Source: a virus (Duplodnaviria > Heunggongvirae > Uroviricota > Caudoviricetes). Taken from it: a stretch of DNA of 42,503 bases. Positions within the stretch are counted from its first letter, which is position 1, and each line of letters begins with the position of its first letter. Shown in pieces: positions 147 through 13,586 of the stretch. The stretch lies in IMG/VR virus record IMGVR_UViG_3300046047_000272, one strand, 5' to 3'. Both the position numbers and the translations under genes were made by a program. The notes beneath the pieces were generated by a model that saw only the letters and a program-made list of their open reading frames with translations, was not told where the DNA came from and made no database searches.

Positions 147-229
147 GCCCTTATGGTTGGAATTGGTAGACACGGCCGACTTAAAATCGGCTTCCGTAAG
201 GAATCTCGGTTCGAGTCCGAGTAAGGGCA
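147..229 (+). tRNA. tRNA-Leu(TAA)
   Basis: Acceptor GCCCTTA/TAAGGGC, loop CT-TAA-AA, long variable arm, T-loop TTCGAGT. Confidence 0.93.
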
Positions 230-337
230 CTGAGTTGCTGGCAACCAGCTTTAGTCGAAAGACAGTCTGCCCGGTAACCCTCTCATAATGTTTGTTCTAA
301 AACGAGGAGCAATGACTTTGAGAGGAACCGTTCGTTT

Positions 338-409
338 ACGGGTATAGTTCATCGGTCAGAACACTTCTCTGATACAGAAGAAAGGATAGTTCAATTCTAT
401 CTACCCGTA
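338..409 (+). tRNA. tRNA-Ile(GAT)
   Basis: Acceptor ACGGGTA/TACCCGT, loop CT-GAT-AC. Confidence 0.9.
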
Positions 410-410
410 C

Positions 411-482
411 GCCTTAGTAGCTCAGAGGAAGAGCATCTGTCTCTTAAACAGAGGGTCGAGATATCATAATTCTCCTGAGGCA
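411..482 (+). tRNA. tRNA-Lys(CTT), non-canonical T-loop
   Basis: Acceptor GCCTTAG/CTGAGGC, loop CT-CTT-AA; T arm GAGA-TATCATAAT-TCTC lacks TTCRA. Confidence 0.8.
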
Positions 483-602
483 CGAAACCGATCTGCAGCT
501 CGGTTTTGGACTGGTGTCCGGATCAAAGTGAAGTGAAACTCTTCAAACAGCGGGGTTCGATTCCCCAATGTACGCGAGTATAACGCATTGACCCACCTTT
601 AT

Positions 603-683
603 GGTGCATTCGCATAGCGGCAATTGCGGCTGGCTGTAAACCAGCTCCCACCGGGTTCGAGGGTTCGAGTCCCCCATGCACCA
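603..683 (+). tRNA. tRNA-Tyr(GTA)
   Basis: GGTGCAT/ATGCACC, loop CT-GTA-AA, long variable arm. Confidence 0.92.
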
Positions 684-945
684 CGAGCTGCATGATCTCG
701 CAGCTATACGTTGATGTTACTATATAAGGATTGATTATCCGAGTATGGTTCTCAACAGGGGATCCTTCAACATCGTATCGTGATGGACACCATGATACGA
801 TAGAGTATATAGTTAACCGCTTGATGTGATGTAATCAATGATTACAACATCAAGTTACATAAATCCTGTCCTCAAATGATCGAGAACGATCTCGCCCATG
901 GAGAACCATGATGATGACGAAGCCCTAATCAAGCAACGTCAACAT

Positions 946-1016
946 ACGCCTATGGTGTAGTGGTAACACAAGAGCTTCCAAACCTCTTGACTTGGGTTCG
1001 ATTCCTGGTGGGCGTA
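946..1016 (+). tRNA. tRNA-Trp(CCA)
   Basis: ACGCCTA/TGGGCGT, loop TT-CCA-AA, C31-C39 mismatch. Confidence 0.82.
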
Positions 1017-1037
1017 CTTTGTCAACACTTGTTGACA

Positions 1038-1096
1038 GGAATCTTGGTGTGAACCATGCTGTTAGCATGGTCATGGGTTCGATTCCCATGATTCCA
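1038..1096 (+). ncRNA. D-armless tRNA-Asn(GTT)-like RNA
   Basis: GGAATC/GATTCC, perfect anticodon arm CCATG-CTGTTAG-CATGG, T arm ATGGG-TTCGATT-CCCAT; only ~10 nt where the D arm should be. Confidence 0.65.
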
Positions 1097-1353
1097 CGTG
1101 TGTCATCGTGCAGCCACTAATAGTGGAAATAGCGGACCATGCTTGATAACCATGGGACATCGGGTTCCTCGTCGCACGCTTCAACATCACATCGAATTGG
1201 ATGGAATATCGTATTGATGGAGTAGAAGTCAACTGCCTGTTACTGTGGTTAAGACCATACCTCAGGTTCTATAAACACTATCCTCGCTGACTGAGAACAG
1301 TCTCGTTCATGGAGTATCATGATACAGTCATGGAACTATCATCCATGACTTAT

Positions 1354-10767: not shown

Positions 10768-10854
10768 GGAGTGCGTGATCCTATTGGTAAGGTCAGCTCG
10801 TCCTGAAAACGAGTGCCGTTCGCGCGGTTAGGGGTTCGATTCCCTTGCACTCCG
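10768..10854 (+). tRNA. tRNA-Ser(TGA), C33
   Basis: GGAGTGC/GCACTCC-G, CTCGT-CC-TGA-AA-ACGAG, long arm. Confidence 0.85.
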
Positions 10855-10914
10855 CGATATTACAGGATGAATGAAGTGATGCATCAATCATGACGCTGAC
10901 TGGTTCTCATATCG
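10855..10914 (+). ncRNA. possible degenerate third Y-RNA-like hairpin
   Basis: CGATAT/ATATCG closing stem and 3' motif GACTGGTTCTC; lacks TTACTTC. Confidence 0.3.
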
Positions 10915-10960
10915 TCCTTCACTATGGTCGCCAGTCCCATCAGCAATGAAAGAGGATACT

Positions 10961-12568
10961 ATGGTAAGATTCAACACGAAGAAGAACGTGTCTAACAATG
11001 GTTTAGGTGTGATTACGACGGCAACTGCTGATAATGTTTTCACTGGTCGGACAGAGCCTGTCCGAGTCCTGAACCCAGAGGGTGGTGTTGGTTATCAGAG
11101 GGACGCGAAGTCCGAGTTATTCATCGCAGCGGTCTCCACGCTGAATGAGGACACCTTCTACGAGGGGTCCGATGAACGAAGTGAGCGTATTAACGATCTT
11201 GTCGCCAAGATTGCTGATGACGCTGATTGGATCATTGGCCTTGTCCACTGGCTTCGATACGATGCTGGATTGCGTTCGGTGCCAGTGATGATCGCAGCTG
11301 ATGCGGTTCATGCTCGTCTTGCCAATGGACAGACTGGTCAGAATAGAGACATCGTCAGGTCGTCTATGCTGAGATTAGATGAGCCATCAGAATTCTTAGC
11401 CTACTGGATCAACACCTTCGGACGGAAGATTCCATCATCTGTGAAGCGAGGCATCAACGATGTCTTAGCTAAGCATCTTACTGAGGAGTCGTATCTTAAG
11501 TGGAGGGGTAAGGCTCAGCGAGGATCAATGGCGTTACGAGATGTCGTGAATCTCACGCATCCTAAGCCGGTATCAGATTATCAGTCATCGGTTTACGATG
11601 TGATCCTCTCTGATGCGTATCGTCATGAGGACAGTCATCGTACAGCTGATGATTACCGAGCTATTGGCTTATCAGTTATTGGTTCGAGGACTGAATTCCT
11701 ATTCATGTCGGTCGAGGATCAGATTGCCGCGTTGTCTGGTCCATCAAGTAAGGACATCATCAACAATGCTCGATTGACGCACGAGGTTATTGCTGGTTCA
11801 ATCGGAAAGATTCCTGCCGAGGTCTGGAAGAATCTGGTTCCATTCATGGGGTACACTGCTCTGAGAATGAATCTTCGTCGTATGTCTGAAGCTGGTATCG
11901 ATCAGGATACCATCGATCAGGTGAACACGATTCTTGGTGATGTGGACAAGGTCCGGTCATCGAGAACGATGCCTATGCAGTTCTTAAGTGCGTACAGGAA
12001 TGCACCACTTGATTACTCGGCGGCTCTTCAGCGAGGAGCTAATGGCGCGTTGGAGAATGTTCCAGAATTGTCAGGAAGAACGTTGATCCTGGTGGATAGA
12101 TCAGGGTCGATGGATTTCAATACATCTGAGCATGGCACGTTGAGGGCAGCTGATGGAGCGAATATCTTCGCGGCTTCGCTAGCTTTAAGATCGCATAGAG
12201 CCGATGTGGTTGCCTTCAACGATTCGGTGAAGCCAGTTCCCGTAACGTCGAATGATCTTCTTCGCGTAGCGGAAAGTATGCCTCGTGCGGGCGGCGGAAC
12301 TGATATTCGTGGCGCGGTAGAAGCGTCGTATCATGGTCAGGATCGAGTCATTGTTCTGACTGACGAGCAGAGCTGGTCGTCGAACGATTCCTTCGAGGGG
12401 ATTGTTCATGATACGGTTCCATGCTACACGTGGAATCTGGTAGGATACGCTTCTTCTCATACCATAGCGAAGAAGAACAGGTATACATTCGGAGGTCTTA
12501 GCGATAAGGGCTTCAAGGCTATTCTACTGCTTGAGGCTGGCTATCGTGAGCATTGGCCGTGGGAGTGA
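10961..12568 (+). CDS. rsr: Ro60/Rsr TROVE-domain RNA-binding protein with vWA domain
   Basis: SD GAGGA before ATG 10961; N-terminal NPEGGVGYQRD..ELF; LR+VV+LTHPKP; MGYTALRMNLRR; vWA MIDAS DRSGS and VIVLTDEQ. Confidence 0.92.
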   Translation: MVRFNTKKNVSNNGLGVITTATADNVFTGRTEPVRVLNPEGGVGYQRDAKSELFIAAVSTLNEDTFYEGSDERSERINDLVAKIADDADWIIGLVHWLRYDAGLRSVPVMIAADAVHARLANGQTGQNRDIVRSSMLRLDEPSEFLAYWINTFGRKIPSSVKRGINDVLAKHLTEESYLKWRGKAQRGSMALRDVVNLTHPKPVSDYQSSVYDVILSDAYRHEDSHRTADDYRAIGLSVIGSRTEFLFMSVEDQIAALSGPSSKDIINNARLTHEVIAGSIGKIPAEVWKNLVPFMGYTALRMNLRRMSEAGIDQDTIDQVNTILGDVDKVRSSRTMPMQFLSAYRNAPLDYSAALQRGANGALENVPELSGRTLILVDRSGSMDFNTSEHGTLRAADGANIFAASLALRSHRADVVAFNDSVKPVPVTSNDLLRVAESMPRAGGGTDIRGAVEASYHGQDRVIVLTDEQSWSSNDSFEGIVHDTVPCYTWNLVGYASSHTIAKKNRYTFGGLSDKGFKAILLLEAGYREHWPWE

Positions 12569-12605
12569 CGATGTGACATGGTGAGAGCAGGAATAGACGA
12601 GATGG

Positions 12606-12634
12606 TTGCTTCTGCTTTCACCATGTGGTATAAT
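12606..12634 (+). promoter_or_regulatory. sigma-A-type promoter for the RNA downstream of Ro60
   Basis: TTGCTT-17 nt-TATAAT with TG extension, overlapping hairpin ACATGGTGAGAGCAG/CTGCTTTCACCATGT. Confidence 0.6.
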
Positions 12635-12678
12635 GTGTGTTATCAGGTCGTGTCGTAAAAACGATATGGACTTGATAT

Positions 12679-12963
12679 GGATGATATGGCTGTCCGTGGA
12701 TTCTGACTGATGACATCATGGACGTGGGTTCGAATCCTACATCGTCCGCTATCATCATGAGGGTATGACTGGGCTTCACCGGCATGTTCTCGGATGAGAA
12801 ACATCACGGAAGCAGATGATCATGATTGAAGATAATGGTCTGGTCGTGACTGTGTTGGATTGACGTCTGTAAGCGCGTATCCTCGAAAGATATGGTCTGT
12901 CTCGCGGTCGAGCTGGCGTAAGGCCAGTTACGACCAAGACGTCAATCACCCTTATACGCTTAC
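12679..12963 (+). ncRNA. tmRNA-like structured RNA in permuted order (or Y-RNA-related)
   Basis: GGAC-GTGGG-TTCGAAT-CCTAC-ATCGTCC precedes a tmRNA-5'-like GGGTATGACTGGGCTTCAC; 12689-12701 pairs with 12803-12813; crossing helices downstream. Confidence 0.45.
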
Positions 12964-12978
12964 TCAGGACGAGGAGTC

Positions 12979-13491
12979 ATGATGCTGGCAGAACCAAAGA
13001 ACGGATGGTCGTATCTCCAGACCATGTATGATGATCATCAAGTGTCCTTCGGTCCTATTAGCTATATGGACGATGCGCCGAAAATGATGCTTGAATCTTT
13101 TATGAATCGTCTGACTCAGCATACGCCAATACAAGTAACATTCGATGCTGAATCTGATGGATATGTGGACATTATCGAGATTGATAATTGCTTGTTTTTC
13201 ACCCATCATTTCAATACCAGGGATCATACCATGGATATTCATGGAACCTTCGTCGGGTTCGTTGATGATCAGCTTAAGAGTTGGTCTGATGAATTGATTC
13301 AGGACATTTCATCTCATATGACGGAATGGGTTGATTGGATAGTGAAGCCACTCGATCATGACGAACTCCTATCTATGAGTACTACTCATGATGATTATGA
13401 GCAAGCCGTCCGTAATCAGAATGACGATCTTACTCATGTCCGTCAGCAGTTAACCGACCGGATATCTGCTTTGCATTGTCTGATTCAATAG
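12979..13491 (+). CDS. hypothetical protein
   Basis: 170-aa ORF, SD GAGGAG, no recognised motif. Confidence 0.7.
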   Translation: MMLAEPKNGWSYLQTMYDDHQVSFGPISYMDDAPKMMLESFMNRLTQHTPIQVTFDAESDGYVDIIEIDNCLFFTHHFNTRDHTMDIHGTFVGFVDDQLKSWSDELIQDISSHMTEWVDWIVKPLDHDELLSMSTTHDDYEQAVRNQNDDLTHVRQQLTDRISALHCLIQ

Positions 13492-13513
13492 ATTAACGAT
13501 GTTGTATATACTT

Positions 13514-13586
13514 GCCTCTGTAGCTCAGCGGATAGAGCGCTGGTCCTCGGAACCAGGCGTCGCAGGTTCGAATCCTGTTAGAGGCA
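13514..13586 (+). tRNA. tRNA-Arg(TCG), C33
   Basis: GCCTCTG/TAGAGGC, CTGGT-CC-TCG-GA-ACCAG. Confidence 0.87.

What the first reader, a model, noticed from the sequence alone, without database searches (positions are those of the whole stretch)
147..13586. Candidate system: a Ro60/Y-RNA module embedded in a giant array of tRNAs and tRNA mimics
Seen: 45 tRNA genes, more than a dozen tRNA-like RNAs, a YrlA-type RNA, short Y-like hairpins and a Ro60 gene share one strand and end at one strong terminator (13611-13657). Established: Ro60/Rsr binds Y RNAs, bacterial YrlA RNAs mimic tRNA, and Rsr is linked to handling of damaged RNA. Inference: the island may keep translation running when host anticodon nucleases or tRNA-targeting toxins fire, using altered tRNAs as resistant replacements, mimics as decoys and Ro60-Y RNPs to sort damaged RNA. 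No RtcB or Pnkp ligase is in this window.
Basis: partly seen in the sequence, partly recalled or inferred. Interest (0 to 1): 0.88.

Follow-up and report, generated by a model that had tools for sequence, protein, structure and literature searches.

The report
Phage Ro60/Y-RNA module in tRNA array
A huge phage-like genome carries a Ro60 RNA-surveillance protein and its small partner "Y" RNAs inside a block of about 45 tRNA genes and a dozen odd tRNA look-alikes; the protein-RNA pair belongs to a known family, its nesting among tRNAs recurs in related phages, and what it does for the phage is untested.

Summary
On the + strand, 147-10855 carries 44-45 tRNA genes and 16 further T-arm elements, about 9 of them well formed. 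A bona fide Ro60 gene follows at 10946/10961-12568, then tRNA-Arg and a strong terminator at 13613-13655.

The hairpins upstream of Ro60 (10564-10636, 10660-10739, and a degenerate third at 10864-10917) are real Y RNAs. A covariance model built from them and phage relatives finds the same RNA just upstream of Ro60 in 10 related phage loci. It also finds six copies in the isolated Arthrobacter phage Atuin and 25 hits in 80 actinobacterial rsr loci, always on the Ro60 strand. This is the actinobacterial YrlA/YrlB family, which Rfam's model does not recover at its threshold.

The "YrlA-type" RNA at 3260-3377 has the right topology but only weak homology, so it is unconfirmed. Ro60 also sits inside tRNA arrays in most sampled relatives.

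The anti-nuclease "decoy and sorter" reading is untested. The look-alikes that lack anticodon loops would be poor decoys for anticodon nucleases. No RNA data exist for this sample.

This scan has reported phage Ro60-like genes with partner RNAs in tRNA arrays before, on other DNA (Felix O1-type phages). Verdict: a new variant of a known kind, of moderate interest.

The parts
147..10855 (+). tRNA array: 44-45 tRNA genes for 18 amino acids, plus an amber-suppressor-type tRNA(CUA). None encodes CCA in register after the discriminator base.
   Evidence: ARAGORN; Rfam. All 44 tested genes have C at position 74; position 75 is G in 31. Seven have C33.
411..482 (+). tRNA-Lys(CUU) with a non-canonical T loop, missed by ARAGORN
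   Evidence: Rfam tRNA 51.1 bits; cloverleaf fold; anticodon read by eye from that fold.
3260..3377 (+). YrlA-like candidate (unconfirmed): 13-bp terminal stem, small hairpin, T arm, closed 8-bp acceptor-like hairpin, D-like arm
   Evidence: Fold. The descriptor 'T arm followed at once by a perfect 8-bp hairpin with a short loop' picks only this site in the window; in relatives it picks only RNAs that the Y-RNA models also match (L001 and L006 by R1, L005 by Rfam YrlA below threshold). Weak homology: Rfam YrlA 15.6 bits, no R1 hit, R2 12.3 bits, E about 0.04.
3385..3448 (+). tRNA look-alike: 7-bp acceptor, perfect T arm, 'anticodon' arm of 5 bp with a 3-nt loop
4804..4890 (+). tRNA look-alike that ARAGORN calls 'Val': acceptor and T arm, with a 7-bp stem and 3-nt loop in place of the anticodon arm
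   Evidence: No Rfam tRNA hit; fold.
7568..7639 (+). tRNA look-alike: cloverleaf whose anticodon loop is replaced by a 6-bp stem with a GUAA tetraloop
   Evidence: Rfam tRNA 36.2 bits; ARAGORN with relaxed settings reports a 2-nt 'anticodon'; fold.
8874..8948 (+). tRNA look-alike: 7-bp acceptor, T arm, 8-bp stem with a 3-nt loop in place of the anticodon arm
6362..6437 (+). Non-canonical alanine-type tRNA look-alike: G3:U70, A73, 7-bp anticodon stem, loop CUCGCAC (anticodon CGC), aberrant D region
   Evidence: Rfam matches only the tRNA-like ends of tmRNA, 32.5 bits, below threshold. Nearest paralogs are the Ala tRNAs.
10133..10208 (+). Divergent tRNA with anticodon CAU and a C1-A72 mismatch (initiator-like)
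   Evidence: Rfam tRNA 29 bits for 10144-10201.
1038..1096 (+). Mini tRNA look-alike: 6-bp acceptor, one hairpin, T arm, no D stem
   Evidence: A73-C74-G75 tail.
8228..8271 (+). Mini tRNA look-alike of about 44 nt: acceptor, one hairpin, T arm
10083..10132 (+). Mini tRNA look-alike: 5-bp acceptor, short hairpin, T arm (weaker case)
2457..2512 (+). Mini tRNA look-alike: 6/7 acceptor, long hairpin, T arm; an alternative fold exists
10407..10435 (+). Promoter-like site TTGCCA-17-TATAAT with an upstream TG, ahead of tRNA-Ala, the Y RNAs, tRNA-Ser and Ro60
   Evidence: 11 of 12 consensus match. One of three + strand TTGC-N19-TATAAT sites among 4 matches on both strands, against 0.37 expected.
10492..10565 (+). 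tRNA-Ala(AGC); its 3' end abuts the first Y RNA
10564..10636 (+). Y RNA 1, short YrlB-type hairpin
   Evidence: Member of A1, the alignment from which R1 was built; scores 69.2 bits against R1; fold z = -4.07.
10660..10739 (+). Y RNA 2, short YrlB-type hairpin; its 3' internal loop contains GUCGAAUG
   Evidence: Member of A1, the alignment from which R1 was built; scores 69.2 bits against R1; motif seen.
10768..10855 (+). tRNA-Ser(UGA) with C33, lying between the Y RNAs
10864..10917 (+). Degenerate third Y-like hairpin in the Ro60 leader. It keeps the terminal module (GAAGUGAUG ... GGUUCUC) but lacks the apical GGUUACUUC.
   Evidence: R1 13.4 bits, E = 0.08 with filters off. It occupies the position of the Ro60-proximal Y RNA in relatives.
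10946..12568 (+). Ro60/Rsr: TROVE HEAT-repeat ring plus a vWA domain with an intact MIDAS motif. The conserved start is probably the Met at 10961.
12606..12634 (+). Promoter-like site TTGCTT-17-TATAAT downstream of Ro60
12679..12747 (+). tRNA look-alike without a D arm: 7-bp acceptor, one long hairpin, T arm. Not a tmRNA.
   Evidence: ARAGORN finds no tmRNA. Rfam tmRNA matches only the T arm, 19.2 bits.
12979..13491 (+). ORF of 170 aa with no detectable family
13514..13588 (+). tRNA-Arg(UCG) with C33, the last gene before the terminator
13613..13655 (+). Intrinsic terminator: perfect 16-bp stem (MFE helix longer), 12-nt loop, U-rich tail
   Evidence: -32.8 kcal/mol, z = -6.9; sequence.

Best explanation
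This is a phage-encoded Ro60-Y RNA ribonucleoprotein module of the actinobacterial type, nested at the 3' end of the phage's tRNA gene array.

Shown:
- The protein is a true Ro60 (ring plus vWA/MIDAS).
- Two, possibly three, small hairpin RNAs just upstream belong to a conserved, covarying RNA family. That family sits upstream of Ro60 on the same strand in related phages and in actinobacterial rsr loci.
- The Y RNAs are interleaved with tRNA-Ala and tRNA-Ser behind one near-consensus promoter-like site.
- Nesting of Ro60 and Y RNAs in tRNA arrays recurs in relatives.

Inferred:
- The Y RNAs are cut out of a tRNA-Y RNA precursor by the tRNA end-processing enzymes, as described for D. radiodurans and M. 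smegmatis.
- They dock on Ro60 through the conserved bulged stem.
- As in known Ro60 RNPs, they gate the ring and tether a host 3'-to-5' exonuclease such as PNPase.
- The particle then handles structured RNAs with free 3' ends. The likely substrates are mis-processed or damaged tRNA-type transcripts, which this phage makes in bulk without CCA ends.

The dozen tRNA look-alikes are maintained genes that share tRNA end-processing. Their job is unknown.
For: Ro60 identity: MIDAS residues D384, S386, S388, T452, D473 invariant; top 13 PDB matches are all Ro60/Rsr; TM-score 0.67/0.77 to phage phiLo Ro60.

Y RNA family: a MAFFT alignment of 11 hairpins gives 17 pairs, 13 with compensatory double changes. 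Model R1 finds members that were not used to build it in L001, L004, L005, L007, L008, L092 and L093, and six in phage Atuin. It gives 25 hits in 80 actinobacterial rsr loci, all on the rsr strand and within about 650 nt upstream. Across 42 members, 94.1% of cells are paired against 58.6% in shuffles and about 40% when partners are slid. The long bacterial hits fold as classic YrlA and the short ones as YrlB-like hairpins.

Link to experiment (my inference): the invariant GGUUACUUCA resembles GGCGACUUCA. I derived that by complementing the published M. smegmatis YrlB probe; YrlB is an RNA shown to bind Rsr.

Co-transcription and processing precedent: promoter-like site at 10407; polycistronic tRNA-Y RNA precursors in PMC4201824.

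Recurrent nesting: 40, 45 and 41 tRNAs within 10 kb either side of Ro60 in L001, L003 and L006; 21 and 9 tRNAs on the short contigs L092 and L093; 26 tRNAs annotated around the Ro-like gene in Atuin; Magritte's 26 tRNAs end at its Ro-like gene (PMC11663251).

tRNA-maturation neighbours in relatives: CCA-adding enzyme in L003, L006, L092 and L093; a TilS-like gene in L006; Thg1 in L005; an RNA ligase in L007.

Look-alikes appear to be maintained: acceptor and T arms are intact while the anticodon arm is rebuilt as a fully paired stem. None is a recent copy of a window tRNA. Most share the N73-C74-G75 tail found in 44 of 44 tRNAs.
Against: - No expression or binding data. The only sequencing runs that hold this DNA are sludge metagenomes.
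- Rfam's YrlA model does not reach its threshold anywhere, here or in the actinobacterial loci. Family assignment therefore rests on my own models.
- The published Rsr-binding motif GNCGAAN0-1G is not present in its 5'-proximal form. The family has GGUUACUUC instead.
- No YrlA-type RNA with a tRNA-like domain could be confirmed in this phage, although relatives have them.
- Ro60 plus Y RNAs occur without tRNAs in L004 and L008. Nesting may therefore reflect shared expression and processing, not shared function.
- No PNPase gene lies in the window.
- Sampled relatives are not independent, so recurrent synteny is partly inherited.
Confidence: 0.6

Rival explanations
1. One reading: an integrated counter-defence island. 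The phage tRNAs carry altered anticodon loops and replace host tRNAs cut by anticodon nucleases. The look-alikes act as decoys. Ro60-Y RNPs sort or clear the damaged tRNAs.
For: Phage tRNAs with anticodon-loop changes escape tRNA-targeting defences in other systems (PMC10264068, PMC11555353). Seven tRNAs here have C33 in place of the near-universal U33. From my own knowledge and the title of PMC7790460, Salmonella rsr lies in an RNA repair operon regulated by damaged tRNAs. An RNA ligase, Thg1 and CCA-adding enzymes lie near Ro60 in relatives.
Against: Nothing here tests it. The best-formed look-alikes have no anticodon loop, so they cannot mimic the substrate of anticodon nucleases. Ro60 plus Y RNAs also occur in phages with no tRNAs nearby (L004, L008). 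No defence or anti-defence gene was recognised in the window.
Confidence: 0.15
2. The phage Ro60-Y RNP mainly restrains the host's PNPase, as proposed for Thermus phage phiLo, and so protects phage transcripts. The tRNA-array location is only a convenient non-coding-RNA expression and processing site.
For: phiLo Ro60 with two upstream Y-like RNAs forms complexes with host PNPase and attenuates RNA degradation (PMC12135203). phiLo Ro60 is the closest solved structure. The window has the same layout of short Y RNAs directly upstream of Ro60.
Against: This reading does not explain why Ro60 is repeatedly placed among tRNAs and next to tRNA-maturation enzymes in relatives. The phiLo result is in vitro and comes from a distant homologue (22% identity in the structural alignment).
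Confidence: 0.15
3. The extra T-arm elements have no function of their own. They are decaying tRNA pseudogenes, or mere RNase P/Z 'punctuation' left in a fast-evolving array, and the island is no more than a tRNA array with a Ro60 cassette inserted in it.
For: Phage tRNA arrays turn over quickly, and relatives also have a few orphan T arms. Several of the 16 elements are poorly formed, namely those with T loops at 121, 555, 1574 and 2913. No homologue of any individual look-alike was found elsewhere.
Against: In the best cases decay is not random. Acceptor and T arms are perfect, and the anticodon arm is rebuilt as a fully paired 5-8 bp stem with a 3-4-nt loop, including a GNRA tetraloop. None is a recent duplicate. 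The tRNA-type 3' tail A/G73-C74 is kept. The window has 16 orphan T arms against 4-6 in comparable arrays.
Confidence: 0.25

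Closest known systems
Actinobacterial Rsr (Ro60) with YrlA and YrlB Y RNAs, e.g. Mycobacterium smegmatis (Chen et al. 2014, PMC4201824)
   Same: Same protein clade: all 80 best cellular relatives are Actinomycetota. Same RNA family by my model: 25 hits upstream of rsr. Same layout: Y RNAs upstream of Ro60 on the same strand, at least two per locus, one of them a plain hairpin.
   Different: Here the module is on a phage and sits among about 45 tRNAs. 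No convincing YrlA with a tRNA-like domain was found. The stem-proximal motif is GGUUACUUC, not GNCGAA. Rfam RF02553 does not reach threshold.
Thermus phage phiLo Ro60 with Yrl1 and Yrl2 (PMC12135203; PDB 9KOP, 9L5Y)
   Same: A phage-encoded Ro60 with two short stem-bulge-stem Y-like RNAs directly upstream. It is the closest solved structure (E = 2.4e-25 by sequence; TM-score 0.67/0.77).
   Different: I did not examine the phiLo locus for tRNAs. The proteins are distant (22% identity in the structural alignment). The CGAA motif is only partly kept here: Y RNA 2 has GUCGAAUG on the 3' strand.
Arthrobacter phage Atuin (OK040794) and Microbacterium phage Magritte (OR553905): annotated 'Ro-like RNA binding protein' within or at the edge of the tRNA cluster
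   Same: Ro60 is embedded in a tRNA array of about 26 genes. In Atuin, six RNAs of the same Y family are interleaved with the tRNAs.
   Different: Atuin's Y RNAs are unannotated, and four of them carry T arms (YrlA-type). Its only orphan T arms are those. The window's phage is far larger, has only short Y RNAs, and has 16 orphan T arms.
Phage tRNAs that escape tRNA-targeting defences (van den Berg et al. 2023, PMC10264068; Azam et al. 2024, PMC11555353)
   Same: A large phage tRNA set with unusual anticodon loops: seven tRNAs with C33.
   Different: Those studies concern individual tRNAs. They do not involve Ro60, Y RNAs or tRNA look-alikes without anticodons: a term search of the 2023 paper found none, and I did not search the 2024 paper.
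Ro60-like (DUF2828-type) proteins with 'handle'-bearing small RNAs in Felix O1-type phage tRNA operons
   Same: A phage Ro60-type protein with several partner small RNAs hidden among tRNA genes.
   Different: Those proteins are distant structural look-alikes with an undescribed RNA family. Here both the protein (TROVE) and the RNA (actinobacterial Yrl type) belong to described families.

Membership tests
Ro60/Rsr (TROVE) proteins | TROVE domain: a HEAT-repeat ring of about 350 residues | tested here: met
   Pfam TROVE, E = 2.9e-8 over a partial stretch. PHROG 850 across residues 37-532. The AlphaFold model is all-helical over residues 54-371, and its full-length top PDB matches are Ro60 structures.
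Ro60/Rsr (TROVE) proteins | C-terminal vWA domain with a MIDAS motif (DxSxS ... T ... D) | tested here: met
   Pfam VWA_2 and vWA_Ro60 match residues 378-481, just below their thresholds. D384, S386, S388, T452 and D473 are invariant in a 10-sequence alignment. The model has a Rossmann-like alpha/beta fold over residues 375-534.
Ro60/Rsr (TROVE) proteins | Binds Y RNA on the outer surface and misfolded RNA in the central cavity | not testable with these tools
   Needs gel-shift or pull-down experiments.
Bacterial/phage Y RNAs (Yrl family), for 10564-10636 and 10660-10739 | Encoded within a few kb of Ro60 on the same strand | tested here: met
   They lie 207-382 nt upstream of the ORF start on the + strand. 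The same holds for all 42 family members collected.
Bacterial/phage Y RNAs (Yrl family), for 10564-10636 and 10660-10739 | The 5' and 3' ends pair into a long stem interrupted by a conserved internal loop or bulge | tested here: met
   Two helices, 17 pairs, 13-14 with compensatory changes, 94% of cells paired. The internal-loop sequences are conserved.
Bacterial/phage Y RNAs (Yrl family), for 10564-10636 and 10660-10739 | Published Rsr-binding motif GNCGAAN0-1G near the 5' end (Chen 2014), or CGAA in the bulge (phiLo paper) | tested here: inconclusive
   The 5' side carries an invariant GGUUACUUC instead. The 3' internal loop has CGA(C/A); Y RNA 2 has GUCGAAUG. In the window, the motif occurs at about the rate I estimate for chance.
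Bacterial/phage Y RNAs (Yrl family), for 10564-10636 and 10660-10739 | Reaches the gathering score of Rfam RF02553 (YrlA) | tested here: not met
   No hit at these coordinates. The model also misses the actinobacterial loci at threshold, so this reflects how the model was built. RF02553 describes the tRNA-like YrlA, not the short hairpins.
YrlA (Y RNA with a tRNA-like domain), for 3260-3377 | Permuted tRNA-like domain: T arm, loop-closed acceptor stem and D arm, held on a terminal stem | tested here: met
   Fold; specific descriptor. The D arm is weak: a 3-bp stem.
YrlA (Y RNA with a tRNA-like domain), for 3260-3377 | Sequence and structure homology to known YrlA, including the Ro60-binding base module | tested here: not met
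   Rfam YrlA 15.6 bits against a threshold of 69. No R1 hit at E up to 10. R2, built from 13 YrlA-type RNAs, gives 12.3 bits and ranks it 28th. GGUUACUUC is absent.
YrlA (Y RNA with a tRNA-like domain), for 3260-3377 | Within about 4 kb of Ro60 on the same strand | tested here: inconclusive
   Same strand, but 7.6 kb away. YrlA-type RNAs in relatives lie 3.5-7.5 kb from Ro60 inside the arrays, so distance does not exclude it.
tmRNA, for 12679-12830 and 6362-6437 | tRNA-Ala-like domain plus a tag reading frame and pseudoknots | tested here: not met
   ARAGORN finds no tmRNA. Rfam matches only the tRNA-like ends or the T arm, at 32.5 and 19.2 bits against a threshold of 47. A genuine tmRNA is found in relative L003.
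Large phage tRNA arrays | Tens of same-strand tRNA genes covering most amino acids on a phage genome | tested here: met
   That the genome is a phage rests on earlier notes and on phage relatives.

The most novel reading that the evidence does not exclude
The look-alikes without anticodons that still keep tRNA-type ends (3385-3448, 4804-4890, 7568-7639, 8874-8948, and the minis) are a dedicated class of phage RNAs. They would act through their acceptor end and T arm. One possibility is as sponges for host factors or defence toxins that attack tRNA 3' ends or acceptor stems. Another is as stand-alone tRNA-like partners that replace the missing YrlA domain for the Ro60-Y RNP. In either case, the island would be a coordinated counter-defence and tRNA-homeostasis system.
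Probability: 0.12. Interest if true: 0.85.

Novelty: new variant of a known kind. Interest (0 to 1): 0.5.

Why it matters
Ro60 and Y RNAs are conserved from bacteria to humans, where Ro60 is a lupus and Sjogren autoantigen. Their cellular job is still poorly defined.

A lineage of large phages repeatedly places Ro60 and its Y RNAs among tRNA genes and next to CCA-adding, Thg1-type and ligase enzymes. That points to tRNA-type RNAs as the natural substrates.

The isolated Arthrobacter phage Atuin has the same layout, so the question can be addressed at the bench.

The covariance model built here recovers actinobacterial and phage Y RNAs that the current Rfam family misses at its threshold. That is useful for annotation.

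The tRNA look-alikes with deleted anticodon loops are unexplained and may be worth a small-RNA sequencing look.

Tried and rejected
- Rfam at its gathering threshold finds only tRNAs in the window. The sub-threshold YrlA hits at 8969-9105 and 5773-5871 are junctions of two adjacent real tRNAs, not Y RNAs. My own YrlA model R2 shows the same artefact.
- ARAGORN with lowered thresholds produced mostly noise, including giant 'introns' and minus-strand calls, and was not used.
- The 'permuted tmRNA' reading of 12679-12830 is rejected. There is only a T arm match and no tag frame.
- The GNCGAAN0-1G motif count in the window (8 on the + strand of 1-14000) is about what I estimate by hand for chance, so it was not used as evidence.
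- The HEAT-repeat ORF at 6639-7322 inside the array is not a Ro60 fragment. It has no homologue in the relatives' loci and no PHROG match. I treat it as unrelated to the module.
- A search of IMG/VR with Ro60 peptide patterns found no relative, and megablast against GenBank phages found nothing.
- No whole genome is held for this window. The stretch upstream of the window, where the array continues, could not be read.
- No RNA sequencing run holds this DNA.
- MAFFT plus RNAalifold on YrlA-type RNAs recovered only the T, D and inner stems, so R2 is a weak model.

Full report
**What is in the sequence**

ARAGORN finds 44 tRNA genes between 147 and 13588, all on the + strand. Rfam supports 42 of them and adds 411-482, which folds as a tRNA-Lys(CUU) with an unusual T loop. 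One ARAGORN call, 4804-4890 'Val', has no Rfam support. It folds as an acceptor and T arm around a 7-bp stem with a 3-nt loop, so I count it as a look-alike.

Two other sequence features stand out:
- All 44 tested tRNAs have C at position 74 and none encodes CCA in register after the discriminator base. Position 75 is G in 31.
- Seven tRNAs have C33 in the anticodon loop.

The T-loop motif GTTCRANNC occurs 58 times on the + strand of the first 14 kb and never on the - strand. Sixteen T arms lie outside the ARAGORN calls. Relatives with arrays of similar size have 4 to 6.

**The tRNA look-alikes**

About nine of the sixteen are well formed, with a 6-7 bp acceptor stem and a 5-bp T arm. They fall into three groups:
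- Full-size molecules whose anticodon arm is replaced by a fully paired stem of 5-8 bp with a 3- or 4-nt loop: 3385-3448, 4804-4890, 7568-7639 (GUAA tetraloop) and 8874-8948.
- Minis made of an acceptor, one hairpin and a T arm: 1038-1096, 8228-8271, 10083-10132, 2457-2512 and 12679-12747.
- Divergent but probably decoding tRNAs: 6362-6437 (G3:U70, A73, anticodon CGC, 7-bp anticodon stem) and 10133-10208 (anticodon CAU, C1-A72 mismatch).

None of them is a recent copy of a tRNA in the window. Most keep the tRNA-type tail, usually A73-C74-G75. That pattern is not what random decay gives, so I regard the best ones as maintained genes. I found no homologue of any individual element elsewhere, and their function is unknown. 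Relatives also hold a few such elements.

**Ro60**

The ORF at 10946-12568 matches Pfam TROVE and vWA and PHROG 850 'RNA-binding protein' over its full length. It also matches the Thermus phage phiLo Ro60 sequences in the PDB, E = 2.4e-25. It is 33-36% identical over 92-100% of its length to actinophage 'Ro-like RNA binding proteins'.

In a 10-sequence alignment the MIDAS residues are invariant, and the conserved start is the Met at residue 6, that is 10961. An AlphaFold model has mean pLDDT 79. Its 13 best PDB matches are Ro60/Rsr structures from phage phiLo, D. radiodurans, Xenopus and human. All 80 best cellular relatives are Actinomycetota. This fits earlier notes that the genome is a roughly 490-kb phage with actinobacterial affinities.

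**The Y RNAs**

Reading 10566-10945 shows two hairpins that share GUUACUUC and GUUCUC, plus a degenerate third. Ro60 homologues at about 50% identity lie on long metagenomic phage contigs. Each contig has a non-coding gap of 330-990 nt upstream of Ro60.

A simple motif pair search found the same hairpin in that gap in seven of eight loci. A MAFFT alignment of eleven copies gives an RNAalifold structure of 17 pairs, 13 with compensatory double changes.

The covariance model R1 built from it then found further members:
- Copies it had never seen in L001, L004, L005, L007 and L008.
- Copies in the two closest relatives, L092 and L093.
- Six copies interleaved with tRNAs around the Ro-like gene of the isolated Arthrobacter phage Atuin.
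- 25 hits in 80 actinobacterial rsr loci, every one on the rsr strand and within about 650 nt upstream.

Over 42 members, 94.1% of cells pair, against 58.6% in shuffles and about 40% in slid controls. That alignment is fitted to the model, but the MAFFT result agrees with it.

The long bacterial hits fold as textbook YrlA: base stem, small hairpin, T arm, closed acceptor, D arm. The short ones are YrlB-like hairpins. The invariant GGUUACUUCA resembles GGCGACUUCA, which I obtained by complementing the published M. smegmatis YrlB probe. This last link is my inference.

So 10564-10636 and 10660-10739 are YrlB-type Y RNAs of the actinobacterial family (they are two of the eleven hairpins R1 was built from, and score 69.2 bits each against it). 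The third hairpin, 10864-10917, keeps only the terminal module (13.4 bits, E = 0.08). It sits where relatives have their Ro60-proximal copy. Rfam's YrlA model reaches threshold nowhere, not even in the bacterial loci.

**The YrlA-type candidate**

3260-3377 folds into a 13-bp terminal stem, a small hairpin, a T arm, a perfect closed 8-bp hairpin and a weak D arm. I used the descriptor 'T arm followed at once by a perfect 8-bp hairpin with a short loop'. It picks only this site in the window. In relatives it picks only sites that R1 or Rfam's YrlA model also match.

YrlA-type RNAs in relatives lie 3.5-7.5 kb from Ro60 inside the arrays, so its distance of 7.6 kb is no objection. Homology is weak, though. 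Rfam gives 15.6 bits. R1 finds nothing. My YrlA model R2 gives 12.3 bits and ranks it 28th, behind junctions of neighbouring tRNAs. It also lacks GGUUACUUC. I put the chance that it is a Ro60 partner at about 40%.

**Context and transcription**

The terminator at 13613-13655 is real: -32.8 kcal/mol, z = -6.9. The island is probably not one transcript. Three + strand sites of the form TTGC-N19-TATAAT with an upstream TG lie at 9327, 10407 and 12606 (4 matches on both strands against 0.37 expected).

The site at 10407 heads a unit of tRNA-Ala(AGC), Y RNA 1, Y RNA 2, tRNA-Ser(UGA), hairpin 3 and Ro60. Y RNA 1 starts at the 3' end of the tRNA. In D. radiodurans and M. smegmatis, Y RNAs are cut from polycistronic precursors, in the first case together with a tRNA (PMC4201824). 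The same route is the simplest reading here, but it is inferred.

**Recurrence**

Ro60 lies within a tRNA array in these loci:
- L001: 40 tRNAs within 10 kb either side.
- L003: 45 tRNAs.
- L006: 41 tRNAs.
- L092: 21 tRNAs on 9.5 kb.
- L093: 9 tRNAs on 6 kb.
- Atuin: 26 tRNAs annotated around the Ro-like gene.

In L007 (17 tRNAs, all 3.5 kb or more upstream) and L009 (7) tRNAs lie nearby. A genome announcement notes that Magritte's 26 tRNAs end at its Ro-like gene (PMC11663251). L004 and L008 have Ro60 plus two to three Y RNAs and no tRNAs.

Several relatives place tRNA-maturation genes next to Ro60: a CCA-adding enzyme in L003, L006, L092 and L093, a TilS-like gene in L006, Thg1 in L005 and an RNA ligase in L007. 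This neighbourhood points to tRNA-type RNAs as the business of the particle. The relatives are not independent samples, however, and shared expression and processing of non-coding RNAs would give the same picture.

**Mechanism**

I commit to the following. The Y RNAs bind Ro60 through the conserved bulged stem. As in known Ro60 RNPs, they gate the ring and tether a host 3'-to-5' exonuclease. The substrates are structured RNAs with free 3' ends, most likely mis-processed or damaged members of the large CCA-less tRNA output of this phage.

The identity of the parts is near certain. The mechanism is inference, at about 0.4-0.5.

Resistant tRNAs, decoys and a sorter remain possible but untested.
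- The resistant-tRNA part is a published idea (PMC10264068, PMC11555353). It fits the C33 loops.
- The decoy part is weakened because the best mimics have no anticodon loop.
- A rival with experimental precedent is that the RNP restrains host PNPase (PMC12135203).

**Novelty**

These are already known or on record:
- Phage Ro60 with upstream Y RNAs (Chen 2014; phiLo 2025).
- Ro-like genes inside tRNA clusters, visible in annotated actinophage genomes.
- Ro60-like proteins with partner RNAs in tRNA operons of Felix O1-type phages, which this scan has repeatedly reported on other DNA.

These are new here:
- The demonstration that the hairpins belong to the actinobacterial Yrl family.
- A model that finds that family where Rfam does not.
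- The extent of the nesting across a huge-phage lineage.
- The unusually rich set of look-alikes without anticodons.

I found no paper analysing any of these. I rate it a new variant of a known kind, interest 0.5.

Noticed in passing
window 9401-9475 and 5818-5893: A clean cloverleaf tRNA with anticodon CUA (amber-suppressor type, C33). A second tRNA is called 'Stop(UUA)' by ARAGORN. If its stem is paired like that of its closest paralog tRNA-Arg(ACG), its anticodon loop has 9 nt (CUAUUAGAA). The window's own ORFs are intact under code 11, so any recoding would have to be elsewhere in the genome.
   Followed up: partly
window 147-13588: Every tRNA tested (44 of 44) has C at position 74, usually followed by G (31 of 44), and none has CCA in register. 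This suggests a uniform 3'-processing and CCA-completion rule for the whole array.
   Followed up: partly
window 1654, 4978, 6049, 9217, 10492: Five non-Arg tRNAs have A34 anticodons: Thr AGU, Leu AAG twice, Ser AGA and Ala AGC. This is unusual for bacteria and their phages.
   Followed up: no
L001 12639-13025, L003 2371-2765, L006 13058-13480: GOLLD RNAs (Rfam 219.6, 147.7 and 233.3 bits; the L003 hit is just under the 150-bit threshold) lie inside the tRNA arrays of three relatives, a few kb from Ro60. None was detected in the window.
   Followed up: no
window 4246-4530 and 5063-5308: Another note on this window reports two copies of an unidentified structured RNA of about 250-290 nt, each between two tRNAs. 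No Rfam family reaches its threshold there. They occupy the kind of slot that GOLLD fills in relatives.
   Followed up: no
L006 16700-16965; L006 8015-8202; L007 6217-6405; L003 17600-17976: The relatives' arrays also hold an RNase P RNA-like element (58 bits, below threshold), manA-RNA-like elements (about 50 bits, just below threshold) and a genuine tmRNA.
   Followed up: no
L001 8439-8514, L006 13920-14003, L005 1300-1376: A recurrent non-canonical tRNA type in relatives: 7-bp acceptor, no recognisable D arm, a stem-loop with a CUUCUA-type loop early in the molecule, a long unpaired stretch and a normal T arm.
   Followed up: no
window 9327-9355, 10407-10435, 12606-12634: Three + strand promoter-like sites share the form TTGC-N19-TATAAT with TG upstream of the -10 element (4 matches on both strands against 0.37 expected). 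All three cluster around the Ro60 end of the array.
   Followed up: partly
window 6639-7322: A 227-aa HEAT-repeat ORF with a Cys/His-rich N-terminus sits in the middle of the tRNA array. It has no homologue in the relatives' loci and no PHROG family.
   Followed up: partly
window 16234-20243: A VirB11/T2SSE-type ATPase and a TraG/VirD4-like coupling-protein homologue lie next to HU, dUTPase, gyrase A/B, a sigma factor and NAD-dependent ligase. This is an unusual set for a phage replication region.
   Followed up: no
window 27-113: At the window's edge there is a second element with a T arm followed directly by a closed 7-bp hairpin, enclosed by an 11-bp outer stem (YrlA-like topology).
   Followed up: partly
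L005 7183-8730 and 13213-14760; L009 2936-4240: TnpB/Cas12f-like genes lie within 1-2 kb of Ro60 on both sides in L005, and one lies about 6 kb upstream in L009, where a Transposase-2 RNA (79.8 bits) abuts it.
   Followed up: no
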